64,000 bases of DNA from a virus. The position numbers and the translations under genes are program-made. The notes below the pieces were generated by a model. That model was not told the origin of the DNA. It saw only the letters and a list, made by a program, of their open reading frames with translations, and searched no databases. Location: the IMG/VR virus record IMGVR_UViG_3300014946_000127; one strand, written 5' to 3'. Of this stretch, positions 2,055 to 63,545 are shown in pieces. Position 1 is the stretch's first letter. Each line of letters starts with the position of its first letter.

Positions 2055-2057
2055 ACC

Positions 2058-2432
2058 TCACACGATTTTAATGTTCGTCTCGTCCTCACCACCATACTCC
2101 CAGTATCCGCTCGCGAAATCGGAGTCGGTACGGCAATAATGCCTTTCTACGGTAAGGATTCCCTTGCGGAAAGTGTTCGGCTCGAATACGGCTATCAGCT
2201 CGCCGTCTCGAAGGACACAATTCACCCGCTTGTCACCCTCCTGCGAGACTTCACACGTCCGGCCGTATTGGTCCCGATAGATGAAGCGGAATTTCAGTCC
2301 CTCTACATCGATGGGGGAACCATTCATATCTGAAAACTCCAAACCGGCCTTAATACCTTCCCATGAGTATTTCTCTTCGTACTTTTTTTCACTCATCGCT
2401 GCCATCGGATAATGCGTTGAACATTTTTTCAA
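2058..2432 (-). CDS. Hypothetical protein (tail module)
   Basis: 124-aa ORF, co-directional and tightly packed with neighbouring structural genes. Confidence 0.5.
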   Translation of the reverse strand: MKKCSTHYPMAAMSEKKYEEKYSWEGIKAGLEFSDMNGSPIDVEGLKFRFIYRDQYGRTCEVSQEGDKRVNCVLRDGELIAVFEPNTFRKGILTVERHYCRTDSDFASGYWEYGGEDETNIKIV

Positions 2433-2628
2433 CCAGAGCTTTCGTCTCCTCGACCGTGGAGGTCATGGAATAGACATTCATGTTAAAACTGCCTTGCCCG
2501 ACAGTGACATGGCCTTTTTCCACACCGTTTTCCACAATTCGGTAATTGACCGCTTGCAGGGTTTCCACAGTCTCTTTTCCGTTGAACGAACGGCTGATGT
2601 TTTCGCTGATTTTTACTAACTCAATCAT
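2389..2628 (-). CDS. Hypothetical protein
   Basis: 79-aa ORF overlapping the end of the previous gene in another frame. Confidence 0.4.
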   Translation of the reverse strand: MIELVKISENISRSFNGKETVETLQAVNYRIVENGVEKGHVTVGQGSFNMNVYSMTSTVEETKALVEKMFNALSDGSDE

Positions 2629-2646
2629 AATGTTTTGTATTTATGG

Positions 2647-3930
2647 TTAACTGATAATCCCGCTGTCGGGAATGTCGAATGTCACGTTTTTGGATAGTGA
2701 GTCGAGTTGGACGCCGGCCTCGCCCGACGAGGAGACCCCATACACGGAACAGGTTAAGTAATAGGTATGGGTTCCCGGTGGAAGGTCCGGATGTATCGTC
2801 CCCAAAGGGATATTCAAAATGAGAATCCCAGTTCCCTTGTATTCGTAATCATAGATCGCGAGGAATCCGGACCCCGAAATACGGAAGGAGTATTTCTCAC
2901 CCACCGGAGGATTTCCGTTCGGAAAACTGATACGCACCTGAAAGTAGCTCGAAAGGAAAGTGAAATCCACGATTTTAATCGGGGTATATGTGCTGTTTAT
3001 CTCGGCTATCATAGCTATCGATGTGGGTATGGGGAAATAATCGCCCAAGATGAATTGCGTGCCCACTCCCGTCCAGTACTCGAACGATTTCTTATCGATA
3101 AGGAACAACGTCACCTTCAAACTCGCCCCCACCGAATCCTTACCGGGGAATGTGTCGCTCTGTCCGACAGGAGGACTCGGCGATACAGTCCCGTCGTTGA
3201 AAAACTTCACTCTGAAAGAAGAATACCAGACATCTCCCATTGACGTCCCCTTTACCCGCAGTGTCGTCACGGTGTTTGTCGAGGTATTCGTCAGCAGGCG
3301 GGCGTAACTTCCCCCGTTCTCGTCGGTGACGAGAATAGCCGGATAATAATCGCCGACACTCTTGTCGGAGGCCAGAGCCAGCCACGATTCGACGGGTACA
3401 CCGGTGGGGTTTACCGAATCATCGTAATAATTGATCTTGACAAAAAGATACGGCACGTCCGCACTGATTTCGTCGATCCGGCTTCCCGTTAAATTAGGTT
3501 CCGCATTGTGGTCGTATCCGTCGAAGTCACTGAGGCGGCAAAAATCCGTCCCCGGGTGCGGATAGGCCACATAATCGAAGGAGGTGTCATGGATAGCGAC
3601 AAGATTCCCGTGCGGTATCGTGGCTTTCAGCCCATAGCGTATGCCCTGATTTTTGTCGGTGTCGCTCCCTTCCCACTGGTCGATATATGTCGTGACCCCG
3701 CCGGCCTGTTGGGGATAGTTGTCGGAGAGAGGCGCAGCCTGCGGATAGCGCACGGGTTTATGACGGCTCCATTTATTGATACGTCCCGGACGGCCACCCT
3801 GCAACAGGGGGCGTTCGAGGGCAACGATGTCGGCCACGTCCCATACCCCGTTCTTCGGGTATATCCCCAGCAGGTTATAGGGGTCGGTTATCACCACCGG
3901 GGCGACAATCTGGTTGTTCTTGATAGACAT
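2647..3930 (-). CDS. Hypothetical tail/baseplate structural protein
   Basis: 427 aa, directly downstream of the tail-fibre gene, gap of 4 nt. Confidence 0.55.
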   Translation of the reverse strand: MSIKNNQIVAPVVITDPYNLLGIYPKNGVWDVADIVALERPLLQGGRPGRINKWSRHKPVRYPQAAPLSDNYPQQAGGVTTYIDQWEGSDTDKNQGIRYGLKATIPHGNLVAIHDTSFDYVAYPHPGTDFCRLSDFDGYDHNAEPNLTGSRIDEISADVPYLFVKINYYDDSVNPTGVPVESWLALASDKSVGDYYPAILVTDENGGSYARLLTNTSTNTVTTLRVKGTSMGDVWYSSFRVKFFNDGTVSPSPPVGQSDTFPGKDSVGASLKVTLFLIDKKSFEYWTGVGTQFILGDYFPIPTSIAMIAEINSTYTPIKIVDFTFLSSYFQVRISFPNGNPPVGEKYSFRISGSGFLAIYDYEYKGTGILILNIPLGTIHPDLPPGTHTYYLTCSVYGVSSSGEAGVQLDSLSKNVTFDIPDSGIIS

Positions 3931-3933
3931 ACG

Positions 3934-6900
3934 TTACTCTCCTCCTTTCTTTTGTAATTCGGCTATTTCTTGTTTCAGTTTCTCAATTTCATTTTTCATC
4001 GACTGGACCAGACGGGCTGTCTCCTGAGTCGCACCGGCGATGGTGTTGATATAGTCGGTCGACAGGTAGTTCAGAGCCCCGTAACCGTCCTCCGTTTTGT
4101 AGGCCATCGATGGCAATACCTCTTTCACCTTTTGGTATAACAGCCCCGTATGGGCTTCCCCGTCCACACCGCCCTTGTTACGCTTCCGTGCTTTTTCGGT
4201 GTATCGAAAATCGCACACCCTGCCCATCGCCAAGAGGCGGTCGGTATAACTTCGGGTATAGTCGAAATCTCGCTTCAAACGTCTGTCCGAAGTCGTTAGA
4301 GCGGTGACCGAGCCTTGTGCCGAAATATTGCCTTGCGACGATATATCCCCTCCGGCCGTGATGTTACCGTCCGATGTGACACTCTCCTTTGACCTTATGT
4401 TATTCGTCGCCACAATCCTTCCGGCGGAGATGGAGACAGACTTACTCCCGGTCGAAAGGTTTATACTCGTAGCCCTGATTACATTCGCTCCATCGATGTC
4501 TCCCTCCATCGTTATATCCCGGACTCCCGACAGACTTCCGGACACATCGTTCGATCCGTCAAACGGATTTCCCCAAATCGTCCGGATATTTTTAAGCCTG
4601 TCGGCGGCGATGGAATCGTTATCCGTCAAGGCGACAGACGGGGTCACCACGGTCAGCTTGCTCACGCCGACTGCCGGCATGGGAGACAACGATATACTAT
4701 CCACACAGTTCTCGCAAGTCCCGTTCAAAGCCCCGTATGTGTTATAGACGAATATGGAGCAGGTCTGGTAATCGGTCTTGGCCGAAACCCAAAAGCACAC
4801 GTGTCCCCCGTACAAGAACACCTTCACGTCACCCAAATCGTCACCGAAATGCGTACCGGCCGTAGCCGTAAACTCGACATCGTTCGGGGCATAATTATAC
4901 GCCTGTACGATCGTATTGATAATTCGTCGGCTATAATATCCATTTCCGATCAGATGCAACGTCAACATAGCCGCCTCGGCCTCTTCGACTTTCGTGCGAA
5001 TCAACCACCCGTTTCCGGTGGCTGTCTCATACATGCCGCCCCTCTTATACAGGAAAGCCCCGTTGTCAAGTCCGTTCAACTTTTTCGCATTGTCCGATTC
5101 GACCGCACGTCCGACTGTCAGCCCCGTATATGTACCGCTCACGTTGTTTATCTCGGCCAGCGAATAGGTAGGCTTGTTCGGCTGCTGCACCCAATCGTAC
5201 AGGGTTATGCCTTTGGTGACAACGATACCGAGGGCTGTCTTGCTGACCGCCGTCACCACATTGCCTGTACCTATCGTAGATGCGCCGGCGTTGGCGAGTT
5301 TCCAAATCTCGTTGATGGCGTAGGCGTTGAAAGTCTCCGTCATCGTGGTGTTGTCGAACACGCCGCCCAGATCGTCGAACCCATGAACGAGCTTGATGAG
5401 CCCTCCTTCGCCACCGCCACCCCCTTCTCCACGCCATACACCAAGAGCGGATATTCCACCCTGTGAATACACATTAAATTTCGAGTATATCGTATTTTCC
5501 AACTCTGTGTCGAATTTCCACATATCGTTAATACGGGCAAATCCTTCCTGCATTTGTTTTACAGTCCGTTGATACGATTGTTGCAGGGAAGCCGTCATAT
5601 CATTGATGGCAGAAATCAAGTCGATATTCTTATTGGCAGATGCAACCTCTTCTTTCAGTTCTTGCGTATTCCCTTTTATTAGGTTGTTCCCGATGGTAAT
5701 AGTCTGTTCGCAAGGATAGTCGAGTTTGGTTGTAAGGCTTATAACACGAGTAACATATGAATATCCTGCGTTTATGTATTCGACTTTTCTTCCTATGGAT
5801 AAATCAGGATTGTTTTCATCGAACACCACAGGATTAGATGAAAACTGGTAGTTGTTTTGGTCGGAAGAAAGCCGTTCTATTTCTTCGTTCATAGCTGTTT
5901 CCAGCCGTATGTACGCCGAATCTGTATATTCTTCCGGCATTTTGACGTTGAATAGGATAATATCGTCATTTTCCGACGGTATAAGTCCCGTAATAGCAGG
6001 GATAATATAGTTACCTTCTTCCTCTTTATATTTAATCTCGAAATCTCCTTTTTTGACTTCGAAGCTTATGCCATCATCACTCGTTATTGTTTTACTCTCA
6101 TCATGGTATATAAGCTCAAATTCCATACCTTGCAAAGCCCCCGATTGGAAATGTACCGAAGGTTCCTTATTTGGTATACGCATACCATTCGGATTTTTTT
6201 CTTCGTCATAAGGGGAATTGTCGAAGTTAAATTCCGGTATTTGAAAATACCATATCGCATATTGGTCGTATATAGGGTCTCCATTTTCATCTGTGCCTAT
6301 CTGTATTTTATCATTCGTTTCCGAGTCTATACGCCACATAAGGCGGAATCTGACATCTGATATGGAGAGTTCCGATGAAGGGTATATATCATCGAACAGG
6401 AGGATTTTGCTAAATATCTCTCCCTGTTGAAGGTTTGGCCTTATATCTTTATATCCGTTCGGATATTTTTTAGGGTCAAGAGTCAGCCGTTTGTTGACCA
6501 AATTGTTGACATTAGCACCTTTGTATTCCTGTACGATGTTTCGAGTTGACCCGAATGCGTAAAATCGGGTATAATACCCATCTTTTCCCTCCGTAACCGA
6601 AGGTGTATTGATGTTTTCACCAACTTCGAGAGAAACAACAGCTCCATGTTCGGATTTCGACAGATGAATAATCATGGAATCTTTCTCAACCCACCATTCT
6701 GTCTCAAACGCAGAGGCTATACTGTTCAAGGCAGACAATATGTCGATTGATTGGAAAGACAAAGAAGTGGAAGCGTTAAGAGAAGAATCGACGGCGTAAG
6801 TCCATGTATCCCCGGTTTCGTTCTCGATAGCCTTACAAATAACACTCATGAAATTGGCCGGGTTATCGGTAAGAGACCAATCCGGCTCCCGATTAGTTAT

Positions 6901-7227
6901 CTCGTTATTCTCATCGTAAGAATACATGAAAAAAGGCACTTTACCCCATGATATAAATTTCGAATGAAATTGTGGTTTGTATTGAAATTCGACCTCGTTC
7001 TTTTGTTTTGGATTATATGGCTCCAAAAGAGAATATTTCTCACCATCGAGTATAATATAAGCCCCTACCGGAATCTCTTCATTTTGGTCCGAGTTCCACG
7101 ACAATTCTACATAATCGGATTTCATCAATTCCTCTACATGAACACATTCTTCTGTTATAGGAACTGATAAAATAGTATCTCCTTGTATGTTTTTAATGTC
7201 TATCATGATGGTTTCGTATATCTTCAT
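3934..7227 (-). CDS. Tail fibre / tailspike protein with C-terminal intramolecular chaperone auto-processing domain (peptidase S74-like)
   Basis: 1097 aa. C-terminus SDRRLKRDFDYT...LNYLSTDYINTIAGATQE...EIEKLKQEIAELQKK matches the endosialidase-type chaperone signature (S-D-R-R-L-K) plus a coiled coil. Contains a Gly-run (GEGGGGGEGG). Confidence 0.7.
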   Translation of the reverse strand: MKIYETIMIDIKNIQGDTILSVPITEECVHVEELMKSDYVELSWNSDQNEEIPVGAYIILDGEKYSLLEPYNPKQKNEVEFQYKPQFHSKFISWGKVPFFMYSYDENNEITNREPDWSLTDNPANFMSVICKAIENETGDTWTYAVDSSLNASTSLSFQSIDILSALNSIASAFETEWWVEKDSMIIHLSKSEHGAVVSLEVGENINTPSVTEGKDGYYTRFYAFGSTRNIVQEYKGANVNNLVNKRLTLDPKKYPNGYKDIRPNLQQGEIFSKILLFDDIYPSSELSISDVRFRLMWRIDSETNDKIQIGTDENGDPIYDQYAIWYFQIPEFNFDNSPYDEEKNPNGMRIPNKEPSVHFQSGALQGMEFELIYHDESKTITSDDGISFEVKKGDFEIKYKEEEGNYIIPAITGLIPSENDDIILFNVKMPEEYTDSAYIRLETAMNEEIERLSSDQNNYQFSSNPVVFDENNPDLSIGRKVEYINAGYSYVTRVISLTTKLDYPCEQTITIGNNLIKGNTQELKEEVASANKNIDLISAINDMTASLQQSYQRTVKQMQEGFARINDMWKFDTELENTIYSKFNVYSQGGISALGVWRGEGGGGGEGGLIKLVHGFDDLGGVFDNTTMTETFNAYAINEIWKLANAGASTIGTGNVVTAVSKTALGIVVTKGITLYDWVQQPNKPTYSLAEINNVSGTYTGLTVGRAVESDNAKKLNGLDNGAFLYKRGGMYETATGNGWLIRTKVEEAEAAMLTLHLIGNGYYSRRIINTIVQAYNYAPNDVEFTATAGTHFGDDLGDVKVFLYGGHVCFWVSAKTDYQTCSIFVYNTYGALNGTCENCVDSISLSPMPAVGVSKLTVVTPSVALTDNDSIAADRLKNIRTIWGNPFDGSNDVSGSLSGVRDITMEGDIDGANVIRATSINLSTGSKSVSISAGRIVATNNIRSKESVTSDGNITAGGDISSQGNISAQGSVTALTTSDRRLKRDFDYTRSYTDRLLAMGRVCDFRYTEKARKRNKGGVDGEAHTGLLYQKVKEVLPSMAYKTEDGYGALNYLSTDYINTIAGATQETARLVQSMKNEIEKLKQEIAELQKKGGE

Positions 7228-8124: not shown

Positions 8125-11100
8125 CTATAAATCTTTAGTATTCCTATTGACTTGTGCTATATCGGATTTTATATCAATTAATAATTTCGTATATTTTGCA
8201 ATGTCTTCTAAGTAGCTATTCGTAATCACATGTTGATTAAGAATGTTATTTAGTATAGAATTGCTATTAGTTGATACAGATAAAAGAGAATTTAGAGAGA
8301 TTACGGCTGAAATCATTTGATTTTTGATTTCTTCACCAGAAAGCTGCAACGCTGTAAACCGGCCGTTTAATTCCGTTGCTGTATCTTGTGACATGGTTTC
8401 AAAACCTTCGGCTGTCGACTTTTGTTCGGTGGTAGAACTTTCTCCCATGAGACTATCAGCCCAACCGAATTGAGCATCTATTTCTTGTTGAAGCTGTTCA
8501 GCCATGTTGTTGATGTAATCTTGTTCCCATTGAGAAAGCACGTTGTCGGCATAAAATTGTTGCAACTTAGTGCGTATTTCCTCCATTTTATTTGAGGATT
8601 TAATTGCTGCCTTAATGCTCTCTGTTACCATTTGTTGCATCATCTGCTTTACAACATCTTTTGCAGATTTAGCCCTATTCTCGCCAGAAGCCCATGCATC
8701 TGCATAAGCTTCTGCAAAGTTGTCAATAGCACTTTTTAGGTCTTCACCAAATATGACATCGATAGCTTTTTCTTTGTTATCAGAAATGAGATTGTTTATT
8801 TCGTCAATTTGATTTTCCCATTCTTTTATTCTGTCGCTATCTGTATTCTTTTTATCTTGTTCTTCTTTAATTTGATTTTGAATAAGTACTTTTTGTTGTT
8901 CTAGCAATTTATTTTGGTCTTCAATCAAGCTGGAAGCACTCTTTCCGTAAGCAGTTTCAATGGACTTGCCTAACTTTTCATACGAACGGTCAAGTGTATC
9001 TACCTGATCTTGTAATTTCTGAATCCGTTTTTCATTTTTTGCGTCGTGGATTTTTGCGATAGAGGAAGCAAGAGAGGAGACAAGACCGATGGCAGCACCA
9101 GCAGCAGAACCTATCGGTCCAAATATAGCACCTGCCTCTGCTCCTTGCATAGCTGAATTGAGGCCGTCCATAGCCACATTGATACCTTCGGCAATGCCTG
9201 ACAGTGTATCAGATCCGAAAGCCTCTCCGAGATTTGAAAATGTGTCGGAAAGGAATTGGGCTACACTTAATACCTCACTTAATCCACTTCTTATTTCTTC
9301 AAGTCCATCTTGCAATTTTTTTGTATTTGAACCGGCATCGAATACTTTTTTAAGACCATTAGCTAGTTTGTTAAACCCCGTTTCAGATTGATCTGCGGAA
9401 TTACGGACATTATCTATACCTTTTCTAATTCGTTCTAATTCTTCGGGAGATTTACGCAATGTGTCGAAGGTCTCTTTTGTCATACCAAATTCAAGACCTT
9501 TGTTTTCGTCCCATTCGCCTGATTGCAAGAATTGGAATGCTCGTTCAGCTTCATTAGCAATGAGACGCATATCTGCAACTGTGTGTTGACGCATATCGTC
9601 AAACAATTTACTTATGGCAGACGTAGATTTATTCGCCTCTATATCCAAATCAGATAGTGCCCTTTTTGTTTCTTCGTCAATAGACTTCTGTTCCCATTCG
9701 TTTTTGCCTACCTTACGAGATTCGCCTTGCTCAATAATAGCATTACGCTTTTCATAATAGTTCCCGTAAGCGGCAAGATAATCGTTCATTGCGTTAATTT
9801 CATCATCGAGAATTTCTTTGGTCTGTTTATTCTTATTCTTTTCATTTAACCTATTTGCGGTATCAATATTTTCCTGTTGTTCAGTTGTTAGTCCATTCTC
9901 ATTAAGCTTGGAGGGTTCAATCTTAGCTACTTTGTTTAACTCGGCCAGCTCTTTCTCTTTCTTTTTAATTTCTTTTTTCTGTTCTTCATAATAGTATTTA
10001 ATTTGCTTCAATTTCTTATCTTTGCCTTCTTCCCAGAGGGAGATTTCTTTCTCTTGATTTTTTTTACGAAGCTCAAGAAGTTCATCAACAAGTTTCTGCT
10101 CGGCCTCTTTTTGCTCTTTTGCTTGCTTATCTTCAGCCGCTTTATCAGATTTGGTTTTAGGCAGCTTTGCACGGAGTGCGTCAATTCGTGATTGTAACGC
10201 ATTGTATTCCTTGCTTCCACTTACAGTTTCTCCTTGCTCTTTCTCTAATTTTGAGATTTGTGTTTTGACTTCATTGATTACTCTCAAATCTTTCTCACGT
10301 TCAAGTACAGTGTCTTGAAGCGACTTGATATAAGCTTCTTGTTGATCCACTGCTTCTTTTGTTCCGCTACCGTCTGCAAGAGCCTTTTTTAATGATGCAA
10401 GTGAGGTTTCAGCCTTCTTGATTTCTTCTTCAAGTTGGGAGATGGATTTACCTTCTGTTGTAAAAATATTTTCAGTAGGTGAATCAAATGAGGGTTCGGG
10501 AATGAAATATTTGTTTCTGTATTCTTCTAAATTTTTATTTCTTATTTCAGCTTGTCGCCTTATTTCAAATAGAAGTGTATTTGCAGATTCTCTCCACTCT
10601 CCCACATCCCACCACTCCCCAATAGATACATCATTAAAAATCCTTTGAATTTCTGTCGGTATATCTCGACCGCTATCCAGCCAGTTTAACCAATTTCGGT
10701 AGACTTTTAATCCAGACTCATCTCCATATTTTTTTGTAAATGCATCATATACTTTTGTTAAGTTTTTTTCTCTGACGCTATTGTATATATCTTCTTCTTG
10801 TTTGGCAAAATTGGTATAATTTTGTGCGGCCATAGATTTACGTATGGCTTTTTCTAATTTTTCATATTGTCCAGCAAGAGACCCTGTTTTATCAATTTCT
10901 TCATCAATGCCAGAAAGATACTTTGAATAGCCATTTACTATTTTTTCTTTTATAGCATACCATTCTTCAGACCATTTTTTAGCCTCCGTAAGTTGCCTAT
11001 TAAGTTCCCTTAATGTGGACATTTCATTTAATGCAGCCACTTCGGTTTTACCAAATTCATCGTTCAGCCTTTCCTGTGCCTTTTCTGCTTCTGTTTGATA

Positions 11101-12219
11101 AGTGACTAATTTATAAACACCTAAACCTAGTGCTGCTACTGCCGCTGCTACTGCGACATATGGGTTGGCAAGTAAAGTCTTGTTCAGTGCAGCTTGCGCA
11201 ACTTGCAATAATTTCGTGCGAGTAGCAGCCAAAGCTTCTGCATTTGATAATGTTATTCCTGAAGCTGCTGCAAGACTTTGATTTAATGCGGACTGAGCTA
11301 ATACGGCGGAATATACTTTTTGTAAAGCTGTTATAGTAATCAATGCAGCTTTATACGCTCCGTATGTACCGACCAATTCAATTAGTATTTTTCCTACTTT
11401 TTCATAGTTTTCTATCAAATAAGAGACGCTGGATAATGCATCATTGATAATACCTTCATTCGCTTTACCGATGTCGTTCAACATCATCGAGAAACTATCT
11501 CCTATGTTAGAAATCTGTCCGGTAATGGTTTTGCTTTGTTCTTGCATTAAGTTAAAGAACATACCACCCTCGTTGGTAAGGTTCTGTATGACTTTCTGAA
11601 CCTCTGGAAACCCTATCATACCAGCTTCTACCATTCCTTTGATTTCACTTTCAGCTACTCCAAATTCTTTGGCAAGTTCTTTTATCATTGGAATACCTCG
11701 TCCAGTGAATTGGTTTAGGTCCTGTGTATAAAGTCGACCTTGTGTCATAGTTGTACCATAGAGATATACTAAGTCTCCCAAAGGTTGTGAAAGTCCGGCT
11801 GCAATGTTCCCTAATCGTATAAGAGTCTCGTTAACATCTTCGGCAGAAGTACCGTAAGCCAGTAATTGACGAGCTCCATTGGCAACACCTTGTAGATCGA
11901 ATGGAGTTTTGGCGGCTGTTTCTGTGAGCTGAGCCATAAGGACGTTTGCCTTTTCACTACTTCCAAGCATAGTGGTAAAGGCGACCTCTAATTGTTGAAA
12001 TTCACCTCTTACTTGTATAATATTTTGGATAAGTTCTTTTGCTGTAAAGCCAGCCCCAAAAGCTGCAGCTGCTTTCGTCATTTTGTTGAACATATCTTCT
12101 ATGCCCAATCCATTTTTTTCTATTTCCTTAGAAGTATTGGTTACTCCGGTTTCTACTTCTCGTAGTTTACGAAGAAAATTAGAATTGTCGCCTGTTATAT
12201 CAAAATGAAGTCCGGCCAT
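8125..12219 (-). CDS. Tail tape measure protein
   Basis: 1364 aa. Long coiled-coil, K/E-rich central region; Gly/Ala-rich hydrophobic segments (AAAAFGAGF..., AVAAAVAALGLGVY). Sits between major-tail and fibre genes. Confidence 0.8.
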   Translation of the reverse strand: MAGLHFDITGDNSNFLRKLREVETGVTNTSKEIEKNGLGIEDMFNKMTKAAAAFGAGFTAKELIQNIIQVRGEFQQLEVAFTTMLGSSEKANVLMAQLTETAAKTPFDLQGVANGARQLLAYGTSAEDVNETLIRLGNIAAGLSQPLGDLVYLYGTTMTQGRLYTQDLNQFTGRGIPMIKELAKEFGVAESEIKGMVEAGMIGFPEVQKVIQNLTNEGGMFFNLMQEQSKTITGQISNIGDSFSMMLNDIGKANEGIINDALSSVSYLIENYEKVGKILIELVGTYGAYKAALITITALQKVYSAVLAQSALNQSLAAASGITLSNAEALAATRTKLLQVAQAALNKTLLANPYVAVAAAVAALGLGVYKLVTYQTEAEKAQERLNDEFGKTEVAALNEMSTLRELNRQLTEAKKWSEEWYAIKEKIVNGYSKYLSGIDEEIDKTGSLAGQYEKLEKAIRKSMAAQNYTNFAKQEEDIYNSVREKNLTKVYDAFTKKYGDESGLKVYRNWLNWLDSGRDIPTEIQRIFNDVSIGEWWDVGEWRESANTLLFEIRRQAEIRNKNLEEYRNKYFIPEPSFDSPTENIFTTEGKSISQLEEEIKKAETSLASLKKALADGSGTKEAVDQQEAYIKSLQDTVLEREKDLRVINEVKTQISKLEKEQGETVSGSKEYNALQSRIDALRAKLPKTKSDKAAEDKQAKEQKEAEQKLVDELLELRKKNQEKEISLWEEGKDKKLKQIKYYYEEQKKEIKKKEKELAELNKVAKIEPSKLNENGLTTEQQENIDTANRLNEKNKNKQTKEILDDEINAMNDYLAAYGNYYEKRNAIIEQGESRKVGKNEWEQKSIDEETKRALSDLDIEANKSTSAISKLFDDMRQHTVADMRLIANEAERAFQFLQSGEWDENKGLEFGMTKETFDTLRKSPEELERIRKGIDNVRNSADQSETGFNKLANGLKKVFDAGSNTKKLQDGLEEIRSGLSEVLSVAQFLSDTFSNLGEAFGSDTLSGIAEGINVAMDGLNSAMQGAEAGAIFGPIGSAAGAAIGLVSSLASSIAKIHDAKNEKRIQKLQDQVDTLDRSYEKLGKSIETAYGKSASSLIEDQNKLLEQQKVLIQNQIKEEQDKKNTDSDRIKEWENQIDEINNLISDNKEKAIDVIFGEDLKSAIDNFAEAYADAWASGENRAKSAKDVVKQMMQQMVTESIKAAIKSSNKMEEIRTKLQQFYADNVLSQWEQDYINNMAEQLQQEIDAQFGWADSLMGESSTTEQKSTAEGFETMSQDTATELNGRFTALQLSGEEIKNQMISAVISLNSLLSVSTNSNSILNNILNQHVITNSYLEDIAKYTKLLIDIKSDIAQVNRNTKDL

Positions 12220-12263
12220 GAGTCTTTTCGATTAAAAGGGGTAGATGTAACATCACATCATTT

Positions 12264-12290
12264 GCAAATATACAAAAGTATATGAAATTC
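12264..12290. promoter_or_regulatory. Palindromic motif copy 1 (AAAAGTATATGAAATTCATATACTTTT), divergent intergenic region between tape measure and the plus-strand moron
   Basis: Near-perfect inverted repeat. Each arm contains TACTTTTG, which fits the Bacteroidetes -7 consensus TAnnTTTG, pointing outward. One of five copies. Confidence 0.45.
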
Positions 12291-12409
12291 ATATACTTTT
12301 GATAAAATAGAATAGAGTTAATAAAGTTTAACTAATGTATGAGTATAAATATTTTAATAAATGATTATTGTATTATACTTTTGACGAAACAATCTTAACA
12401 GCATAAGAT

Positions 12410-13570
12410 ATGGATTTCAAAGATACAATTCAACAGATTGTAGAGAAAATTGCTAAACAGAAGGATAGCATAGCAACGGAAGAAGCGACAAAAACCTCTT
12501 TTGTAATGCCTGTGATAGCAGCATTGGGATATGATGTATTCAATCCCTTTGAGGTTGTACCGGAAATGGATTGTGACTTAGTTAAGAGGAAAGGCGAAAA
12601 AATAGACTATGCCATAATGAAGGACGAAAATCCTATACTACTTATAGAATGCAAGCATTGTAAACAAAACTTGAATTTACATGACACTCAGTTACAAAGA
12701 TATTTTGTCGCTTCAAAGGCTAGGTTTGGGGTCTTGACGAATGGAATAGAATATCGCTTTTATACAGATTTAGAAAAGGTGAACATAATGGACGAAAAGC
12801 CGTTCCTTGTGGTGAATATGCTCGATTTATCGGACAACGATATTGAGCAACTGAAAAAGTTTCATAAGTCTTATTATAATGAGCAAGATATATTGAGTAC
12901 GGCACAAGAGTTACAAATCACGATACAAGTAAAAGAAATGCTTAATCGTAATTTCCAAATGCCGGATGATGAATTTACACGTTATTTTGTCCGTAATCTT
13001 AATGATGGGAAATATACGGCAAAACTTGTGGACCAATATAGACCTATTGTTAAGAAATCCATTGCTTCGGTGATTAACGATATTATATCCGACCGTTTGA
13101 ATGTGGCTATGAAGAATGAGAATAAGGAGGAAAAGCAAATGCCACAGGGGGGTGAGAATGAAAATCAACAGCCGAACGAAATGAATGAAGAAAAACTTCC
13201 CGATGGTGTAGTATTTCAAGACCGAGAAAAAGGTATAGTTACTACACAAGAGGAGATAGATGCCTATAACATCGTGCGTAGTATATTGAGGCAGTATGTA
13301 GATGTATCTCGTATTCAATATAACGACTACAAGACTTATTTTTCCGTGAACATAGATGGTAGTACATGGTGGTGGATTTGCCGCATTTATATAGGGAAAC
13401 GGAGTAAAAAAATATGCTTGCCAAAGGATAACTACAAGACAAATGAATGGATTGACATTGAGACTATCGATGATATTTTTAATTATGCCGATGGTCTTAA
13501 AGAGGGTCTTGATTTGGCATTGAAAGAGGCGAATTATTGGCTTGCAAAGAAAAATGAATTAGAAAAATGA
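12410..13570 (+). CDS. HsdR-N-terminal-domain-like (PD-(D/E)xK, Mrr-cat-type) restriction-endonuclease-like protein
   Basis: 386 aa. N-terminus GYDVFNPFEVVPEMDCDLVKRKGEKIDYAIMKDENPILLIECK...GVLTNGIEYRFY matches the HSDR_N family (D...E-C-K catalytic arrangement). Plus-strand insert inside the minus-strand tail module. Confidence 0.6.
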   Translation: MDFKDTIQQIVEKIAKQKDSIATEEATKTSFVMPVIAALGYDVFNPFEVVPEMDCDLVKRKGEKIDYAIMKDENPILLIECKHCKQNLNLHDTQLQRYFVASKARFGVLTNGIEYRFYTDLEKVNIMDEKPFLVVNMLDLSDNDIEQLKKFHKSYYNEQDILSTAQELQITIQVKEMLNRNFQMPDDEFTRYFVRNLNDGKYTAKLVDQYRPIVKKSIASVINDIISDRLNVAMKNENKEEKQMPQGGENENQQPNEMNEEKLPDGVVFQDREKGIVTTQEEIDAYNIVRSILRQYVDVSRIQYNDYKTYFSVNIDGSTWWWICRIYIGKRSKKICLPKDNYKTNEWIDIETIDDIFNYADGLKEGLDLALKEANYWLAKKNELEK

Positions 13571-14061
13571 CAAACGTAACTAATACAAATTTTAGAATTA
13601 TGAGAAAGTTTTTGCTAATCATAGTTTGTGCTTTATCCATTACATCTTGCTCAGATAATGATCCTGAGATATTATCAGTAATGATTAATGTAAAATGTGA
13701 TAATAAAATTGCATCTCCTTCTTTGGTTCGCTTATATGAATATGAAACAGCAAGAGACTTTGATGACAGCTATATGTCTACAATGGAGTACGGCGATTCT
13801 CAAGTTTTAAGAGATAAGTTGGGTAATGAGTTGACTCCCGCATATACATCTGACACGTTTTCTGGAATAAATATTTTTGAGGACATAAAAACAGGGGTAT
13901 ATTTGGCTGTAATACTTTATAAACCTGACGGCTTTACATGGCCTATGTTTTATTTTTATGGATATAAAGTAATTAATGTTGACGAGGATAATAACGCACT
14001 TTTACATAATATATGTTTTTCTTATAGTGAATACGACCGAGGTAAATTCATTGAGTTTTAG
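13567..14061 (+). CDS. Lipoprotein (signal peptide + lipobox)
   Basis: 164 aa. MRKFLLIIVCALSITSC: hydrophobic h-region then lipobox Cys. Start overlaps the stop of the upstream gene. Confidence 0.6.
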   Translation: MTNVTNTNFRIMRKFLLIIVCALSITSCSDNDPEILSVMINVKCDNKIASPSLVRLYEYETARDFDDSYMSTMEYGDSQVLRDKLGNELTPAYTSDTFSGINIFEDIKTGVYLAVILYKPDGFTWPMFYFYGYKVINVDEDNNALLHNICFSYSEYDRGKFIEF

Positions 14062-14774
14062 TCCCACTTCATGCCTTTTATTTTATCCATATTTTTAGGA
14101 TCGTCCCCGTTTATAAATGTTCGGTCCGTAGATATATGATATTTTTTTATCTCGTCGTCAGTAAGGTATATAGATGTTATGTAATCATTAAGTAACATAT
14201 GCAGGTTGGCATAACTAATACCCCATACAACATAGTCCATAGTCCAGCCATAGCGTTCGCAGGCTATATCTATCAAAGTACCATAAATACTTTTACCTCC
14301 AAAGGTTATAGTGTTACACTTCTTTTTCTTGATTCTTGATATTTTTTCTTGTTCTTTTTTCTCAATATCAATCTTGAAGTGTTTAATAAACTGCTCAATG
14401 TTATCCTTTGATAACACTATTATGAATAGTTGAGCAAGTTCTTCATTCGATAGGTTGTCTTCAAATAGCTTTCGTCTTTCATTTATTAGGTGGCTATTGA
14501 ATAATTCTTCCTTTTTATCGAATGTATGGTAAGACAATATTTTGCATATAATATCTCTTTTGGAATCGCATAATCGTAATGCTTCCATATATGGATTTAG
14601 AGAAAGGAAGTCTTTATTTATTTCTAAATTTTCGGTAAGACGTGATAAAAGGTATATTTTACCTAATGTGGCAGGGTATAAGTAGAATTGCATTTCTCCT
14701 ATATGGAACTCATAAGGTCTTTCCATGATAGTATCTGCAATATCCATTTCTATTATTTTCCCTTCTTTGTCCAT
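14058..14774 (-). CDS. Hypothetical protein
   Basis: The ORF track runs 14058..14870, but its first 32 codons overlap the predicted tRNA. The internal start MDKEGKIIEMD... (about 14774) is more plausible. Confidence 0.45.
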   Translation of the reverse strand: MDKEGKIIEMDIADTIMERPYEFHIGEMQFYLYPATLGKIYLLSRLTENLEINKDFLSLNPYMEALRLCDSKRDIICKILSYHTFDKKEELFNSHLINERRKLFEDNLSNEELAQLFIIVLSKDNIEQFIKHFKIDIEKKEQEKISRIKKKKCNTITFGGKSIYGTLIDIACERYGWTMDYVVWGISYANLHMLLNDYITSIYLTDDEIKKYHISTDRTFINGDDPKNMDKIKGMKWD

Positions 14775-14782
14775 GCAAAATA

Positions 14783-14853
14783 AATTATACTGAGCGCAAC
14801 TGTGGGGTCGAACCACAACTTTATACATGGAGTGTATATGTGCTACCGTTACA
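14783..14853 (-). tRNA. Phage-encoded tRNA, 71 nt, anticodon loop ACTCCAT (TCC if 34-36, giving Gly; C at position 33 is atypical)
   Basis: Minus-strand cloverleaf: acceptor GCGTATC/GTTGCGC (one mismatch), D-arm GTGT-AACGGTA-GCAC, anticodon stem TATAC/GTATA, T-arm TGTGG-TTCGACC-CCACA, discriminator T. No encoded CCA. Confidence 0.5.
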
Positions 14854-14916
14854 CTAGATACGCAGAACACGTGGGTACGAAGCCCCCACGTTTGGCTCTA
14901 TCTACAACCTATTGAA

Positions 14917-15465
14917 TTATCCACCAACACTTGGATTAGGAGCTACTTCGAATTTATCACCGTCTCCAGACTCATCTTCAGGATCGCATTCAATTTTACT
15001 GATGTTTCCACCGGATTCCGTCACGATGATTTTACCCCACTGAATTTGTTTTTTATCGGCGGCTGCTTTCAAAGCATCAAAAGTGTATGCCCAAACACCA
15101 CCATCTGCCGCTGTAAATGAATCCTCAACAGAAACGGTAGTTTTCTCCATACAGAATCCCTGAACATCAGGATCTTCCGGCTGTAAAGCAACAGCATAAT
15201 TGTGTGCAACAACACCATCGCTATCACTTACAGGACGCTTACGTCCTTTTGCGGCACGAATGTTCAATGCCAAAGCATAGGTATTCTTTCCATACTTTAC
15301 ATCCTCATTTTCGCCTCCTTCGATTTTTGCTTCTTGTTTATCTCCTTTTGTTGTTGTCAACTGTGTAGAATCTTCCACAGGGGTAGGTAATTCCTCCCAT
15401 TTAGGAGCAGAAGCATCCAAATCTTTTATAAATACACGGGGCTTACCCCATCCTATTACTGCCAT
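14917..15465 (-). CDS. Major tail protein candidate
   Basis: 182 aa. Position immediately upstream (in transcription order) of the tape-measure region; size typical of siphovirus tail-tube proteins. Confidence 0.45.
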   Translation of the reverse strand: MAVIGWGKPRVFIKDLDASAPKWEELPTPVEDSTQLTTTKGDKQEAKIEGGENEDVKYGKNTYALALNIRAAKGRKRPVSDSDGVVAHNYAVALQPEDPDVQGFCMEKTTVSVEDSFTAADGGVWAYTFDALKAAADKKQIQWGKIIVTESGGNISKIECDPEDESGDGDKFEVAPNPSVGG

Positions 15466-23123: not shown

Positions 23124-23850
23124 CTTTATTTACCTCCAATACGTTATTTACTATTTCCAACATCTTACAAATGCTTAATGCCTGAGCCTTGATTTTATAT
23201 TTCGCTTGGACTTTTGCACTGATTTCATTTAAATGGTGCATGGTTTCCATATCTACAAGAGTAAGATTTCCCAACTCTTTTTCCGAATAACACTCTAGCG
23301 TTTCCATGAGTTTGTCGAATGATGCTTTCTGCGTGTCTATGAACATCAGCGTTACAGGAACAATTTCGTTATTCGGCATTTCTACTGTGTAATTAATATC
23401 CTTTACACTTTCCAATACTTCGTTACTGATGTGTGCGTATTCTTTTAAGGCAACATCAGTTATTTCATCAAGTAGCTGTTTTAATACCTCCGCATCGTCT
23501 TGACCAACAATACTGTTGTGACTGAGTTGTGTCGCTAATAGCCAATCGTTGGAAGTGTTATTCTCATCAATATACATTACGTGAATAGAAGTAAGACCTG
23601 CCATCTTTGCTGCCTGTGTTCTATGATTACCACTGACAACTGTATATGTACCATCATTATGCTTTACACAAAATGGAACAGATGAAAGCTGCCCATCTCT
23701 ACGGATATTATTAACAAGTGCATTAAATGTGTCATTGCTCATAAAATGAGCATTCTTCTTGACAAATTTAATGTCAGAGAGTTGAACTTCCTCAATTTTA
23801 AATTTTTTCATATTACTCCTTTCTAGGTTCGTTACCATATTTCTGTACAA
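23107..23850 (-). CDS. ParB-like nuclease domain protein
   Basis: 247 aa. ...DGQLSSVPFCVKHNDGTYTVVSGNHRTQAAKMAG has the ParB/Sulfiredoxin GxxR motif. Upstream of TerS, as is common in phages. Confidence 0.65.
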   Translation of the reverse strand: MYRNMVTNLERSNMKKFKIEEVQLSDIKFVKKNAHFMSNDTFNALVNNIRRDGQLSSVPFCVKHNDGTYTVVSGNHRTQAAKMAGLTSIHVMYIDENNTSNDWLLATQLSHNSIVGQDDAEVLKQLLDEITDVALKEYAHISNEVLESVKDINYTVEMPNNEIVPVTLMFIDTQKASFDKLMETLECYSEKELGNLTLVDMETMHHLNEISAKVQAKYKIKAQALSICKMLEIVNNVLEVNKDGTEV

Positions 23851-28018: not shown

Positions 28019-28137
28019 AAATTTGCGTGACTTTCCACGCTGTCAGATTGTTTGCAGTACCAACTAAATGCAAGGAATCTAACCTTGTCGCTTACTTTAC
28101 ACAACCTCAATCAACGAGCCGAGTTTAACGGCATTAG

Positions 28138-33961: not shown

Positions 33962-33964
33962 GCC

Positions 33965-42856: not shown

Positions 42857-42883
42857 CAAAAATAGCAAAAGTGTATGAATTTC
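42857..42883. promoter_or_regulatory. Palindromic motif copy 5 upstream of the portal gene
   Basis: ttttcaaaaatagcAAAAGTGTATGAATTTCATATACTTTT. Confidence 0.45.
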
Positions 42884-43082
42884 ATATACTTTTAAGACTA
42901 AATTTGTTTAATTTACTATATTCGCCTGTTTTAGTGTTTTCCAGCATTCTCCGTTGAGCGGCAAATTTGATACAGATACAGTAATATCGCTGACACTCCT
43001 TTCAGGTAGCAAGATTTAAGAAATGAAATATATTTCTTAAACTCTACTGTGAGAGAATCAGCGATATTTACTGCCTTTATTG

Positions 43083-48230: not shown

Positions 48231-48234
48231 AATT

Positions 48235-63497: not shown

Positions 63498-63545
63498 AAA
63501 CAAATATGTAATCATCTATGGATTTCAAAGACTAAAATTTGAGTC

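What the first reader, a model, noticed from the sequence alone, without database searches (positions are those of the whole stretch)
12410..14061. Opposite-strand moron inside the tail module: HsdR-N-like PD-(D/E)xK nuclease plus lipoprotein
Two plus-strand genes interrupt an otherwise uniformly minus-strand structural operon, between the tail-tube side and the tape measure, where tail-assembly chaperones would normally be. The first has the type I restriction HsdR N-terminal nuclease-like domain as a stand-alone protein. The second is a secreted lipoprotein. Morons at this position are classically lysogenic-conversion or superinfection-exclusion genes. The pairing of a nuclease-fold protein with a surface lipoprotein suggests a defence or exclusion function expressed from the prophage. 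The expected gpG/gpGT chaperone pair with a programmed frameshift was not found.
Basis: partly seen in the sequence, partly recalled or inferred. Interest (0 to 1): 0.55.

Follow-up and report, generated by a model that had tools for sequence, protein, structure and literature searches.

The report
Prophage nuclease plus swappable lipoprotein cassette
A gut Bacteroidales prophage carries, inserted backwards between two tail genes, a small operon with an intact but unstudied restriction-type nuclease and a surface lipoprotein that is swapped for unrelated lipoproteins in sister phages; it is most likely prophage cargo that protects the host cell from other phages, though this is untested.

Summary
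Two + strand genes, 12410-13570 and 13600(13567)-14061, sit between the tape-measure gene and the ORF that normally precedes it.

- **Gene 1:** a 386-aa protein with an HsdR-N-type PD-(D/E)xK domain. D66, E80, K82, Q94 and Y98 are invariant. It also has a helical region and a C-terminal alpha/beta domain.
- **Gene 2:** a Bacteroidota-type lipoprotein (lipobox Cys followed by SDNDPE).
- **True insertion:** diverged relatives have the tape-measure gene directly after the phrog_11996 ORF.
- **Lysogeny link:** in at least 20 other prophages from four phyla the nuclease lies just downstream of the cI-type repressor, on its strand. The window keeps a 5-codon remnant of the nuclease gene after its own cI.
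- **Swappable partner:** the lipoprotein gene is replaced by unrelated lipoproteins in 98-99% identical phages. Lipoproteins are enriched after this nuclease (10/25 versus 17/398 families).
- **Not an obligate pair:** natural variants lack most of the nuclease gene but keep the lipoprotein.

Best reading: lysogen-expressed accessory cargo, an MTase-less nuclease plus a surface-modifying lipoprotein acting independently. Function is inferred; no defence model matches. The gpG/gpGT frameshift pair is indeed absent, but a chaperone-slot ORF exists. Moderately interesting.

The parts
12410..13570 (+). Solitary nuclease gene (386 aa). It has an N-terminal HsdR-N-type PD-(D/E)xK domain (about residues 1-136; D66, E80, K82, Q94, Y98), a helical region (137-230), a disordered linker (231-265) and a C-terminal alpha/beta domain (266-386).
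13600..14061 (+). Lipoprotein gene, allele A (153 aa from M12; the longest ORF starts at 13567 and overlaps the nuclease stop). Signal peptide, lipobox ITS|C, then SDNDPE, a near-match to the Bacteroides lipoprotein export signal CS(D/E)2.
13519..14055 (.). Exchangeable block: the last 17 codons of the nuclease gene plus the whole lipoprotein gene. It is replaced by two unrelated lipoprotein genes (231 aa, 273 aa) in phages whose flanks are 98-99.5% identical.
   Evidence: blastn break points; ORFs of L019 and L033.
12220..12409 (.). Divergent intergenic region. It holds four TAnnTTTG motifs (the Bacteroidota -7 promoter box): 12376-12383 (+), 27 nt before the nuclease ATG; 12294-12301 (+); 12265-12272 and 12273-12280 (-), upstream of the tape-measure ATG.
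   Evidence: A TAnnTTTG is present on each side in the diverged relatives L050 and L052, read by eye from the alignment.
12273..12301 (.). 29-nt palindrome CAAAAGTATATGAA-A-TTCATATACTTTTG, copy 1. It lies immediately upstream (minus strand) of the -7 box of the tape-measure gene.
   Evidence: Not conserved in L050 or L052.
42866..42894 (.). Palindrome copy 2. It lies immediately upstream (minus strand) of a TAnnTTTG box (42857-42864) and 39 nt upstream of the portal gene start (42827).
14058..14774 (-). 238-aa ORF of family phrog_11996 (function unknown). In cassette-less relatives it directly precedes the tape-measure gene, so it occupies the tail-assembly-chaperone slot. Its stop overlaps the lipoprotein stop (convergent).
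   Evidence: No PDB or annotated phage relative.
8125..12219 (-). Tape-measure protein gene (1364 aa), divergent from the nuclease gene.
   Evidence: PF20155 TMP_3 on the identical gene in L260.
14793..14863 (-). tRNA-Gly(TCC) between the 182-aa tail protein gene and the phrog_11996 ORF.
   Evidence: ARAGORN. Rfam tRNA 44.7 bits against a gathering score of 29.
63518..63535 (+). Remnant of a nuclease gene: ATGGATTTCAAAGAC TAA ('MDFKD*'), 21 nt after the stop of the cI-like repressor gene (62739-63497) and just before an excisionase-like ORF (63546-63800). This is the position the intact nuclease gene holds in related prophages.
   Evidence: L258 has cI, a 25-nt spacer, then the intact nuclease. 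The 14-mer occurs only twice in the window against 0.01 expected. The exact remnant is found in 18 viral contigs, including ones that carry the tail-module cassette.

Best explanation
The region is a two-gene accessory operon (a moron) inserted in reverse orientation between the chaperone-slot ORF and the tape-measure gene of a temperate siphovirus-type prophage of a gut Bacteroidales bacterium. It probably has its own Bacteroidota-type promoter. It lies on the strand of the cI repressor, so it is most likely transcribed in the lysogen, independently of the late tail genes.

Gene 1 encodes a catalytically intact PD-(D/E)xK nuclease with no methyltransferase. It has an HsdR-N-type domain and a less conserved C-terminal alpha/beta domain that I take to be the substrate-recognition part. 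I infer that it cuts incoming foreign (phage) DNA. It would do so in the manner of a solitary Type IV-like or otherwise conditionally active restriction nuclease, because a constitutive non-specific nuclease in a cI operon would kill the lysogen.

Gene 2 encodes a small beta-sandwich lipoprotein that is probably flipped to the cell surface. I infer that it changes or masks a surface structure used by competing phages. This would explain why the gene is exchanged among unrelated alleles in near-identical phages.

The two products act in different compartments and independently of each other. They travel together because the slot after the nuclease gene is a preferred landing site for envelope cargo.

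Shown: gene structure, catalytic residues, insertion status, the link to lysogeny modules, allele swapping, enrichment. Inferred: expression in the lysogen, nuclease target, surface exposure, any anti-phage effect. The confidence of 0.5 is for the whole statement, anti-phage function included; for 'accessory lysogeny-type cargo' alone I would give about 0.85.
For: **Insertion**
- Relatives with 51-58% identical phrog_11996 ORFs have the tape-measure gene 69-144 nt downstream with nothing between.
- The window lineage, L050 and L052 carry nuclease plus a lipoprotein at that site.

**Intact nuclease**
- HSDR_N scores 52.1 bits.
- D66, E80, K82, Q94 and Y98 are invariant at 33-99% identity.

**Lysogeny link**
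- The order is cI/HTH-S24, then nuclease, then (variable gene), then xis-like gene, then integrase, on one strand in Bacteroidales genomes. The gene order comes; one search shows that 9 of 10 upstream proteins tested hit Cro/C1 HTH and/or Peptidase_S24.
- The same holds in Fusobacterium FNU_1P, Acetoanaerobium ANDSL2_ph1, S. pneumoniae IPP25 and Enterococcus EG-TP1 and in L243 and L258.
- A 5-codon remnant of the nuclease gene follows the window's own cI.
- The other + strand genes in the window are cI and a Fic/Doc pair.

**Promoter motifs**
- TAnnTTTG lies 27 nt before the ATG, and an equivalent motif is present in L050 and L052, read from the alignment.

**No methyltransferase**
- None is in the cassette or among the recurrent neighbours.

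**Lipoprotein**
- Lipobox plus acidic post-Cys residues.
- At least 10 unrelated lipoprotein families occupy the slot after the nuclease, against 17 of 398 background families (Fisher p = 3e-7).
- Three alleles are exchanged between 98-99.5% identical flanks.
- Allele C also follows the nuclease in a cI-module context.

**Background**
- Surface lipoproteins alter phage susceptibility in B. thetaiotaomicron (10.1101/521070; PMC12548429).
- Solitary MTase-less nuclease-plus-sensor proteins can be defence systems (END nucleases, PMC12191111).
Against: - No experiment exists on any member. The literature search found only a correlative mention in a phage-resistant C. jejuni strain.
- PADLOC gave no hit at E <= 0.1, and NCBIfam gave nothing significant.
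- The family is also a near-ubiquitous chromosomal gene in Pedobacter, Chryseobacterium and Elizabethkingia. There it lies in a conserved island with a TPR-histidine kinase, a response regulator, DUF1508, DUF6804, a TerB-like protein and an SNase lipoprotein. This hints at a cellular role that need not be anti-phage.
- Lipoprotein alleles do not co-vary with the tail-fibre tip or tape-measure alleles. There is thus no sign of a 'block my own receptor' pairing as in T5 Llp.
- The window's post-Cys motif CSDND is only a near match to CS(D/E)2.
- Promoter evidence is motif-level only.
- Base composition of the cassette (GC 0.33-0.35) is not clearly different from its neighbours.
Confidence: 0.5

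Rival explanations
1. Both genes are independent prophage cargo, but the lipoprotein is a lysogenic-conversion factor for host fitness rather than a phage-exclusion factor. It could serve surface variation towards the immune system, adhesion, nutrient capture or outer-membrane-vesicle cargo. Only the nuclease, if anything, is anti-phage.
For: The lipoprotein is kept in variants with a truncated nuclease. Alleles do not co-vary with tail-fibre or tape-measure alleles. The fold is a generic surface beta-sandwich seen in adhesins, pilins and Bacteroides DUF3823/DUF4876 lipoproteins. LES-bearing lipoproteins are packed into vesicles (PMC6222051).
Against: At least 10 unrelated families in one slot, with rapid allele exchange among near-identical phages, fits an arms race better than a metabolic role. 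No enzymatic or binding domain was detected.
Confidence: 0.22
2. The nuclease is not a defence gene. It is a DNA-metabolism or regulatory protein, for example in repair, recombination or prophage maintenance and induction, that temperate phages borrow. Its place next to cI/int reflects a role in lysogeny itself.
For: Its position between repressor and integrase is very constant in many phyla. It is a core-like chromosomal gene in Sphingobacteriia and Flavobacteriia, next to a two-component system. No defence model matches.
Against: It is dispensable. It is deleted after cI in the window and truncated in L270, L273 and L307 while the phages persist in metagenomes. It works from a quite different genome position in the window lineage. 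Prophage immunity regions are classical sites for exclusion genes (established knowledge: lambda rexAB, P22 sieB, lactococcal sie2009).
Confidence: 0.15
3. The nuclease is a selfish free-standing homing endonuclease that spread into the tail module by cutting nuclease-less relatives. The lipoprotein is a passenger.
For: It is a free-standing nuclease gene inserted between two conserved essential genes. The adjacent tape-measure 5' segment is mosaic (86-100% identity) among otherwise 97-100% identical phages, as co-conversion tracts would be.
Against: PD-(D/E)xK HsdR-N-type proteins of this family are overwhelmingly found in cI operons and bacterial chromosomes, not scattered between phage core genes. 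The same insertion is stable in lineages only 61-63% identical. It is oriented against the operon with its own promoter motif and a co-transcribed envelope gene. Tape-measure mosaicism also affects distant parts of the gene.
Confidence: 0.05
4. The cassette serves the phage's lytic cycle, for example host DNA degradation by the nuclease and a lysis or release function for the lipoprotein (spanin-like).
For: Nucleases and outer-membrane lipoproteins (o-spanins) are ordinary lytic-cycle genes. Porphyromonas phages carry the nuclease among head and tail genes on the structural strand.
Against: It is on the opposite strand to all late genes and the same strand as cI. It is absent from related phages and truncated in viable variants. 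The lipoprotein has no partner i-spanin, is 109-273 aa and is unrelated between alleles. The nuclease lies in repressor operons elsewhere.
Confidence: 0.05

Closest known systems
Nuclease domain at the N-terminus of Type I restriction HsdR subunits (Pfam HSDR_N / HSDR_N_2; e.g. EcoR124I HsdR)
   Same: Same domain family above Pfam cut-offs. The D...ExK triad is intact and is followed by the QxxxY motif (motif names from established knowledge of HsdR).
   Different: There is no SF2 translocase or helicase part and no HsdM/HsdS partners. The protein has only 386 aa, and its own helical and C-terminal alpha/beta domains follow the nuclease domain. It is therefore not a Type I R subunit, despite database names such as 'type I restriction endonuclease'.
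Solitary, methyltransferase-less restriction nucleases with a fused sensor domain (Type IV enzymes such as Mrr and MspJI; END nucleases, PMC12191111)
   Same: A single polypeptide with a conserved PD-(D/E)xK cleavage domain plus a more variable second domain (56% versus 35% mean pairwise identity). No methyltransferase is nearby. It is carried on mobile elements.
Prophage exclusion genes in immunity regions (lambda rexAB, P22 sieA/sieB, BTP1 bstA, lactococcal sie2009)
   Same: In most relatives the nuclease gene sits directly downstream of the repressor and is read in the same direction. This is the classical place for genes expressed in the lysogen that exclude other phages.
   Different: There is no sequence relationship. 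The biochemistry is different (a nuclease). In the window itself the gene has left the immunity region, where a remnant remains, and sits in the tail module.
Phage-encoded exclusion lipoproteins (T5 Llp, phi80/N15/HK022 Cor, S. thermophilus TP-J34 Ltp)
   Same: A small phage-encoded lipoprotein, expressed apart from the structural genes, in a position to act at the cell envelope.
   Different: No homology was found. It belongs to a Bacteroidota host with surface export of lipoproteins. It is not next to a receptor-binding protein gene and is not linked to its alleles. The slot holds at least 10 unrelated families.
Morons in tail gene clusters of temperate siphoviruses (e.g. lambda lom and bor, HK97 and mycobacteriophage tail-region morons)
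   Same: An extra transcription unit is inserted between conserved late genes. It is absent from relatives and carries envelope or defence-type cargo.
   Different: It splits the chaperone-slot ORF from the tape-measure gene, which now has its own conserved promoter motif. The cargo appears to have moved from the cI region within the same phage group.

Membership tests
PD-(D/E)xK nuclease, HSDR_N family | Profile match above the curated threshold | tested here: met
   HSDR_N 52.1 bits (cut-off 25.1); HSDR_N_2 37.4 bits (cut-off 25).
PD-(D/E)xK nuclease, HSDR_N family | Catalytic D ... (D/E)xK triad, plus QxxxY | tested here: met
   D66, E80, K82, Q94 and Y98 are invariant in 25 sequences at 68-99% identity and in 13 at 33-64% identity.
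PD-(D/E)xK nuclease, HSDR_N family | Alpha-beta-beta-beta-alpha-beta core fold | tested here: inconclusive
Type I restriction enzyme R subunit (HsdR) | SF2 ATP-dependent translocase domains | tested here: not met
   Only 386 aa; no ResIII or Helicase_C hit at E <= 0.1.
Type I restriction enzyme R subunit (HsdR) | Adjacent hsdM and hsdS genes | tested here: not met
   The neighbours are the tape-measure gene and a lipoprotein gene. No methyltransferase is among the recurrent neighbours in 80 genome loci.
Type IV / modification-dependent restriction enzyme | Solitary nuclease without a cognate methyltransferase | tested here: met
Type IV / modification-dependent restriction enzyme | Recognisable modified-base-binding domain | tested here: not met
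Type IV / modification-dependent restriction enzyme | Cleavage depends on DNA modification | not testable with these tools
   Needs biochemistry.
END nucleases (PMC12191111) | Inactive Endonuclease III sensor domain fused to the nuclease | tested here: not met
   No EndoIII/HhH-GPD hit.
Known anti-phage defence systems (PADLOC-DB v2.0.0) | Match to any system model | tested here: not met
   No family at E <= 0.1 for the nuclease, the lipoprotein or the phrog_11996 ORF.
Moron (accessory transcription unit in a phage late region) | Present in some related phages and absent at the same site in others | tested here: met
   Absent in L317-L319, L321-L323 and L325. Present in the window lineage, L050 and L052.
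Moron (accessory transcription unit in a phage late region) | Own promoter and terminator | tested here: inconclusive
   A TAnnTTTG motif lies 27 nt before the ATG and an equivalent motif is present in diverged relatives. No terminator is present, because the gene ends overlap convergently.
Moron (accessory transcription unit in a phage late region) | Expressed from the repressed prophage | not testable with these tools
   Inferred from the strand and from the cI-operon position of homologues.
Bacteroidota surface-exposed lipoprotein | Signal peptide II with a lipobox cysteine | tested here: met
   MRKFLLIIVCALSITS|C; the Cys lies in an equivalent N-terminal position in the seven aligned homologues (it is not an invariant alignment column). 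Rule-based reading; no dedicated predictor was available.
Bacteroidota surface-exposed lipoprotein | Lipoprotein export signal CS(D/E)2 or K-(D/E)2 after the Cys | tested here: inconclusive
   The window has CSDND (one of two acidic positions). Homologues have CSKDDD, CSKDED, CSDED and CTDD. Motif from PMC6222051.
Exclusion lipoproteins Llp / Cor / Ltp | Sequence or profile relationship | tested here: not met
   No Pfam, NCBIfam or PADLOC hit. The only PHROG hit is phrog_2291 (unknown function) at 0.0026.
Exclusion lipoproteins Llp / Cor / Ltp | Genetic linkage to the phage's receptor-binding protein | tested here: not met
   Alleles A, B and C each occur with several tail-fibre C-terminal alleles.
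gpG/gpGT tail assembly chaperone pair | Two overlapping ORFs between the tail tube and tape-measure genes, joined by a programmed frameshift | tested here: not met
   A single 238-aa ORF. The A-AAA-AAA site near its end leads to a stop after about 16 codons in the -1 frame. Cassette-less relatives also have one ORF of about 236 aa followed by the tape-measure gene.

The most novel reading that the evidence does not exclude
The roughly 350-390-aa HsdR-N-type protein defines a large, uncharacterised single-gene immunity family: about 1040 clusters at 50% identity with E <= 1e-30. Temperate phages of at least four phyla place it in their repressor operons. In Bacteroidales it forms a two-layer protection cassette with a rapidly exchangeable surface lipoprotein or membrane protein, giving an intracellular DNA cut plus a change of the cell surface. 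The C-terminal YjbR-like domain would be a new kind of sensor for foreign DNA.
Probability: 0.3. Interest if true: 0.7.

Novelty: new member of a known kind. Interest (0 to 1): 0.5.

Why it matters
Gut Bacteroidales prophages are abundant. This exact nuclease protein is indexed in 325 blocks of the public assembly collection, on contigs up to 1.56 Mb. Their accessory genes are almost unstudied.

The analysis yields two directly testable candidates:
- a widespread solitary nuclease that sits in repressor operons across phyla and is absent from current defence catalogues;
- a hot spot where surface lipoproteins are swapped between otherwise identical phages. This could be a way in which prophages reshape phage susceptibility, or the surface properties, of gut commensals.

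It also gives a clear example of cargo that moved from the immunity region into the tail module and split the chaperone-slot ORF from the tape-measure gene.

Tried and rejected
- Megablast of 8-20 kb against 50,697 phage records found no match, so there is no close cultured relative.
- phmmer of the nuclease against PDB found nothing meaningful.
- PADLOC and NCBIfam gave no family.
- I tested whether the lipoprotein allele is matched to the phage's own receptor-binding apparatus, as for T5 Llp. There is no linkage to tail-fibre or tape-measure alleles, so I dropped the 'blocks its own receptor' version.
- I considered the palindrome as the moron's operator. Its second copy lies before the portal gene. 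In both copies a minus-strand -7 box follows it. It is absent from L050 and L052, which still carry the cassette. I therefore assign it to late-gene promoters.
- I looked for a gpG/gpGT frameshift in and after the phrog_11996 ORF and found none that is productive.
- The phrog_11996 ORF has no annotated or solved relative, so its chaperone role rests on position only.
- Literature searches for the stand-alone family in prophages found one incidental mention.
- I considered homing-endonuclease and lytic-cycle readings and ranked them low (see rivals).
Full report
**1. What is there**

The window is almost entirely coded on the minus strand. At 12410-13570 and 13567-14061 two ORFs run on the + strand, and GC skew changes sign only there. 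To the left, on the minus strand, is the 1364-aa tape-measure gene (8125-12219). It carries PF20155 TMP_3 on the identical gene in another assembly.

To the right, also on the minus strand, are three features:
- a 238-aa ORF (14058-14774, family phrog_11996, unknown function);
- a tRNA-Gly(TCC) (14793-14863; ARAGORN; Rfam 44.7 bits);
- a 182-aa tail-region protein (14917-15465, phrog_17745), followed by an HK97-gp10-like gene.

Elsewhere the window has a portal gene (41415-42827), a Rha/antirepressor gene and a tail-fibre-like gene. On the + strand it has a cI-like repressor (HTH plus Peptidase_S24, 62739-63497) and a Fic/Doc gene (33965-34726). It is thus a temperate siphovirus-type phage. 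The exact nuclease protein is found on contigs up to 1.56 Mb, so the phage exists as an integrated prophage. A sister allele is named from Barnesiella intestinihominis.

**2. The nuclease**

The 386-aa protein matches Pfam HSDR_N (52.1 bits, cut-off 25.1) and HSDR_N_2 (37.4 bits). It matches PHROG 4225 ('endonuclease') over its full length at E = 9e-123.

D66, E80 and K82 (the PD-(D/E)xK triad), Q94 and Y98 (the QxxxY motif known from HsdR nuclease domains) and an N-terminal E24-E25-x-T27-K28 motif are invariant. This holds in 25 homologues of 68-99% identity. It also holds in 13 members of 33-64% identity from Bacteroidota, Firmicutes and Fusobacteria.

The protein is more than the domain. 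The AF2 model (mean pLDDT 64.8) shows four parts:
- a nuclease domain, about residues 1-136;
- a helical region, 137-230;
- a disordered acidic linker, 231-265;
- a confident C-terminal alpha/beta domain, with pLDDT 85-91 over residues 320-380.

The nuclease domain is the most conserved part, at 56% mean pairwise identity against 35% for the C-terminal domain. There is no helicase part, no HsdM/HsdS and no methyltransferase nearby. PADLOC and NCBIfam give nothing. The family is large and uniform in length: 1040 clusters at 50% identity with E <= 1e-30, nearly all 340-390 aa.

**3. The lipoprotein**

Homologues begin at the MRKF/MKK position. The likely start is therefore 13600, 30 nt after the nuclease stop. 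The signal is MRKFLLIIVCALSITS|C followed by SDNDPE.

In B. thetaiotaomicron the export signal for surface exposure is CS(D/E)2, and in Capnocytophaga it is K-(D/E)2 (PMC6222051). The window has a near match. Its homologues have CSKDDD, CSKDED, CSDED and CTDD.

**4. It is a true insertion, and the chaperone slot is not empty**

I searched viral contigs with the phrog_11996 ORF. Relatives with 51-58% identity in that ORF and 63-75% in the tape-measure N-terminus (L317-L319, L321-L323, L325) have the tape-measure gene 69-144 nt after that ORF. It is on the same strand with nothing between.

The phrog_11996 ORF is therefore the gene that normally precedes the tape-measure gene, and the cassette was inserted between the two. 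The window lineage (about 50 contigs) and two lineages only 61-63% identical in the nuclease (L050, L052) carry the insertion at this site.

I found no second overlapping ORF and no productive slippery site. The A-AAA-AAA near the 3' end gives a stop after about 16 codons in the -1 frame. The phrog_11996 ORF has no solved or annotated relative, so its chaperone role rests on position alone.

**5. Link to lysogeny**

The nuclease gene lies directly downstream of a Cro/C1-type repressor and is read in the same direction. It is usually followed by an excisionase-like gene and an integrase. This holds in several groups:
- Bacteroidales genomes: the gene order comes, and 9 of 10 upstream proteins tested hit HTH and/or Peptidase_S24;
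- viral contigs L243 and L258;
- Fusobacterium phage FNU_1P, Acetoanaerobium phage ANDSL2_ph1, pneumococcal phage IPP25 and Enterococcus phage EG-TP1, where an ImmA-like metalloprotease may intervene.

In Porphyromonas phages it sits next to HicAB.

L258 comes from the same contig as L322, whose phrog_11996/tape-measure junction is uninterrupted. The same phage group therefore has the nuclease either after cI or in the tail module.

In the window itself, 21 nt after the cI stop, the sequence reads ATGGATTTCAAAGAC TAA. These are the first 14 nt of the nuclease gene, followed at once by the excisionase-like ORF. The 14-mer occurs only twice in the window, against 0.01 expected. The exact remnant is present in 18 viral contigs, including ones that carry tail-module cassettes with alleles A, B or C.

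The simplest history is that the cI-adjacent copy was deleted in a lineage that holds the gene in the tail module. This is inference, but the remnant is hard to explain otherwise.

**6. The lipoprotein slot**

Among phages with 98-99.5% identical flanks, homology breaks at 13518 and resumes at 14056. The exchanged block is the last 17 codons of the nuclease gene plus the whole lipoprotein gene. Three unrelated alleles exist: A (164/153 aa), B (231 aa) and C (273 aa). All have a lipobox.

L050 and L052 carry two further lipoproteins. Allele C has a 51% identical homologue after a 78% identical nuclease in a cI-nuclease-lipoprotein-xis-int context in an uncultured Bacteroides genome.

I used a simple rule-based classifier and crude gene calls. 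With these, 10 of 25 families found directly after the nuclease in Bacteroidota loci are lipoproteins, and 4-5 more have a signal peptide or membrane helix. In the rest of the same loci, 17 of 398 families are lipoproteins (Fisher p = 3e-7).

A small membrane protein (motif ILQIILFFKxW) is another recurrent neighbour, before or after the nuclease.

Three findings argue against an obligate partnership:
- Three contigs (L270, L273, L307) have the nuclease ORF truncated to 66 aa, ending just before D66, while lipoprotein B or C is intact.
- The lipoprotein allele is not linked to the tail-fibre C-terminal or tape-measure alleles.
- Phages of other phyla carry the nuclease without a lipoprotein.

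**7. Transcription signals (motif level only)**

The 190-nt divergent region holds four TAnnTTTG motifs, the Bacteroidota -7 box by established knowledge. One lies 27 nt before the nuclease ATG. Two lie on the minus strand before the tape-measure ATG. A TAnnTTTG on each side is also present in the diverged L050 and L052; I read this by eye from the alignment. This suggests that both the nuclease and the now-separated tape-measure gene have their own promoters.

The 29-nt palindrome (12273-12301) has a second copy (42866-42894), 39 nt before the portal gene. In both copies a minus-strand TAnnTTTG follows directly, and L050 and L052 lack the palindrome. I therefore assign it to regulation of late promoters and not to the moron. 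The cassette has no terminator. Its end overlaps the end of the phrog_11996 ORF convergently.

**8. How it most likely works**

Shown:
- an inserted, dispensable two-gene unit on the repressor strand;
- an intact nuclease active site;
- a strong, cross-phylum tie of the nuclease to repressor operons;
- an envelope-protein hot spot after it.

Inferred:
- The unit is expressed in the lysogen.
- The nuclease attacks incoming DNA. It has no methyltransferase, so it must be restrained, for example by dependence on modification or structure. This is conceptually like Type IV enzymes or the recently described END nucleases (PMC12191111), of which it is not a member.
- The lipoprotein is displayed on the surface and alters phage adsorption. 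This is plausible because surface lipoproteins modify phage susceptibility in B. thetaiotaomicron (10.1101/521070; PMC12548429).

I put about 0.85 on 'accessory, lysogeny-type cargo' and about 0.45-0.5 on 'anti-phage function'.

The main caveat concerns Pedobacter, Chryseobacterium, Elizabethkingia and relatives. There the family is a near-universal chromosomal gene in a conserved island with a TPR-histidine kinase, a response regulator, DUF1508, DUF6804, a TerB-like protein and an SNase lipoprotein. That could mean a cellular role unrelated to phages.

**9. Comparison and novelty**

The protein is a member of the HSDR_N nuclease family. It is not a Type I R subunit and not a member of any catalogued defence system. 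The cassette resembles classical immunity-region exclusion genes (rexAB, sieA/B, bstA, sie2009) and phage exclusion lipoproteins (Llp, Cor, Ltp) in logic only.

No functional study of the stand-alone family was found. One paper notes such a gene in a phage-resistant C. jejuni strain without assigning a role (PMC8713573).

I rate it a new member of a known kind (a prophage moron with defence or conversion cargo). It has two features worth following up: the breadth of the nuclease family in repressor operons, and the swappable lipoprotein slot.

Noticed in passing
window 63518-63535 (with cI 62739-63497 and xis-like ORF 63546-63800): A five-codon remnant 'MDFKD*' of the nuclease gene lies 21 nt after the cI stop, where related prophages have the intact gene. 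It looks like a deletion scar, and 18 viral contigs share it exactly.
   Followed up: yes
window 14793-14863 (-); also 28432-28505 (-) and 28137-28207 (-): A tRNA-Gly(TCC) lies inside the tail module, between the 182-aa tail protein gene and the phrog_11996 ORF. Further on there is a tRNA-Phe(GAA) and an odd tRNA-like call with a 2-base anticodon.
   Followed up: partly
window 12273-12301 and 42866-42894: Two copies of a 29-nt palindrome, each directly followed on the minus strand by a TAnnTTTG box. They lie upstream of the tape-measure and portal genes and are a candidate binding site for a late-gene regulator.
   Followed up: partly
window 33686-34726 (+): A second opposite-strand cassette: a small ORF (91 aa) followed by a Fic/Doc-family protein (253 aa, Pfam Fic 2.9e-22). 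It is probably a toxin-antitoxin-type moron on the cI strand.
   Followed up: no
window 47694-48852 (-): A SocA/Panacea antitoxin-domain protein (178 aa) lies next to a 205-aa ORF with no family. This is a possible toxin-antitoxin pair in the early region.
   Followed up: no
L270 6538-6738, L273, L307 6607-6807: Natural variants in which the nuclease ORF is cut down to 66 aa (ending ...KRKGEKMC*, just before catalytic D66) while lipoprotein allele B or C downstream is intact. The same end point occurs with two different lipoprotein alleles.
   Followed up: yes
L137-L186 (e.g. L173 5235-13300, L175 11110-13294): In Pedobacter, Chryseobacterium, Elizabethkingia and relatives a roughly 40% identical homologue lies in a conserved chromosomal island. 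The island has a TPR-histidine kinase, a response regulator, DUF1508, the nuclease, variable small secreted or membrane proteins, DUF6804, a TerB-like protein, a coiled-coil membrane protein and an SNase lipoprotein. Its function is unknown.
   Followed up: partly
L051, L079/L258 11061-11255, L115, L116, L243 9553-9993, L120: A small membrane protein with the motif ILQIILFFK(V/L/I)W recurs immediately before or after the nuclease gene in several Bacteroidales prophage lineages. It is a second recurrent envelope partner besides lipoproteins.
   Followed up: partly
window 8125-12219 compared with L191-L257: The tape-measure gene is strongly mosaic among otherwise 97-100% identical phages: N-terminal 400 aa 85-100%, middle 41-99%, C-terminal 47-100% identity. 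The tail-fibre C-terminus also has several alleles (66-96%).
   Followed up: partly
window 2000-6000: GC content rises to 0.47-0.53 over the tail-fibre-like genes (2647-3930 and 3934-7227), against about 0.33-0.40 elsewhere in the phage.
   Followed up: no
window 23813-25900 (-): A 695-aa protein combines an amidoligase domain with a phage GNAT-like domain in the head/packaging region. Porphyromonas phages that carry the nuclease homologue also have an 'amidoligase enzyme' nearby.
   Followed up: no
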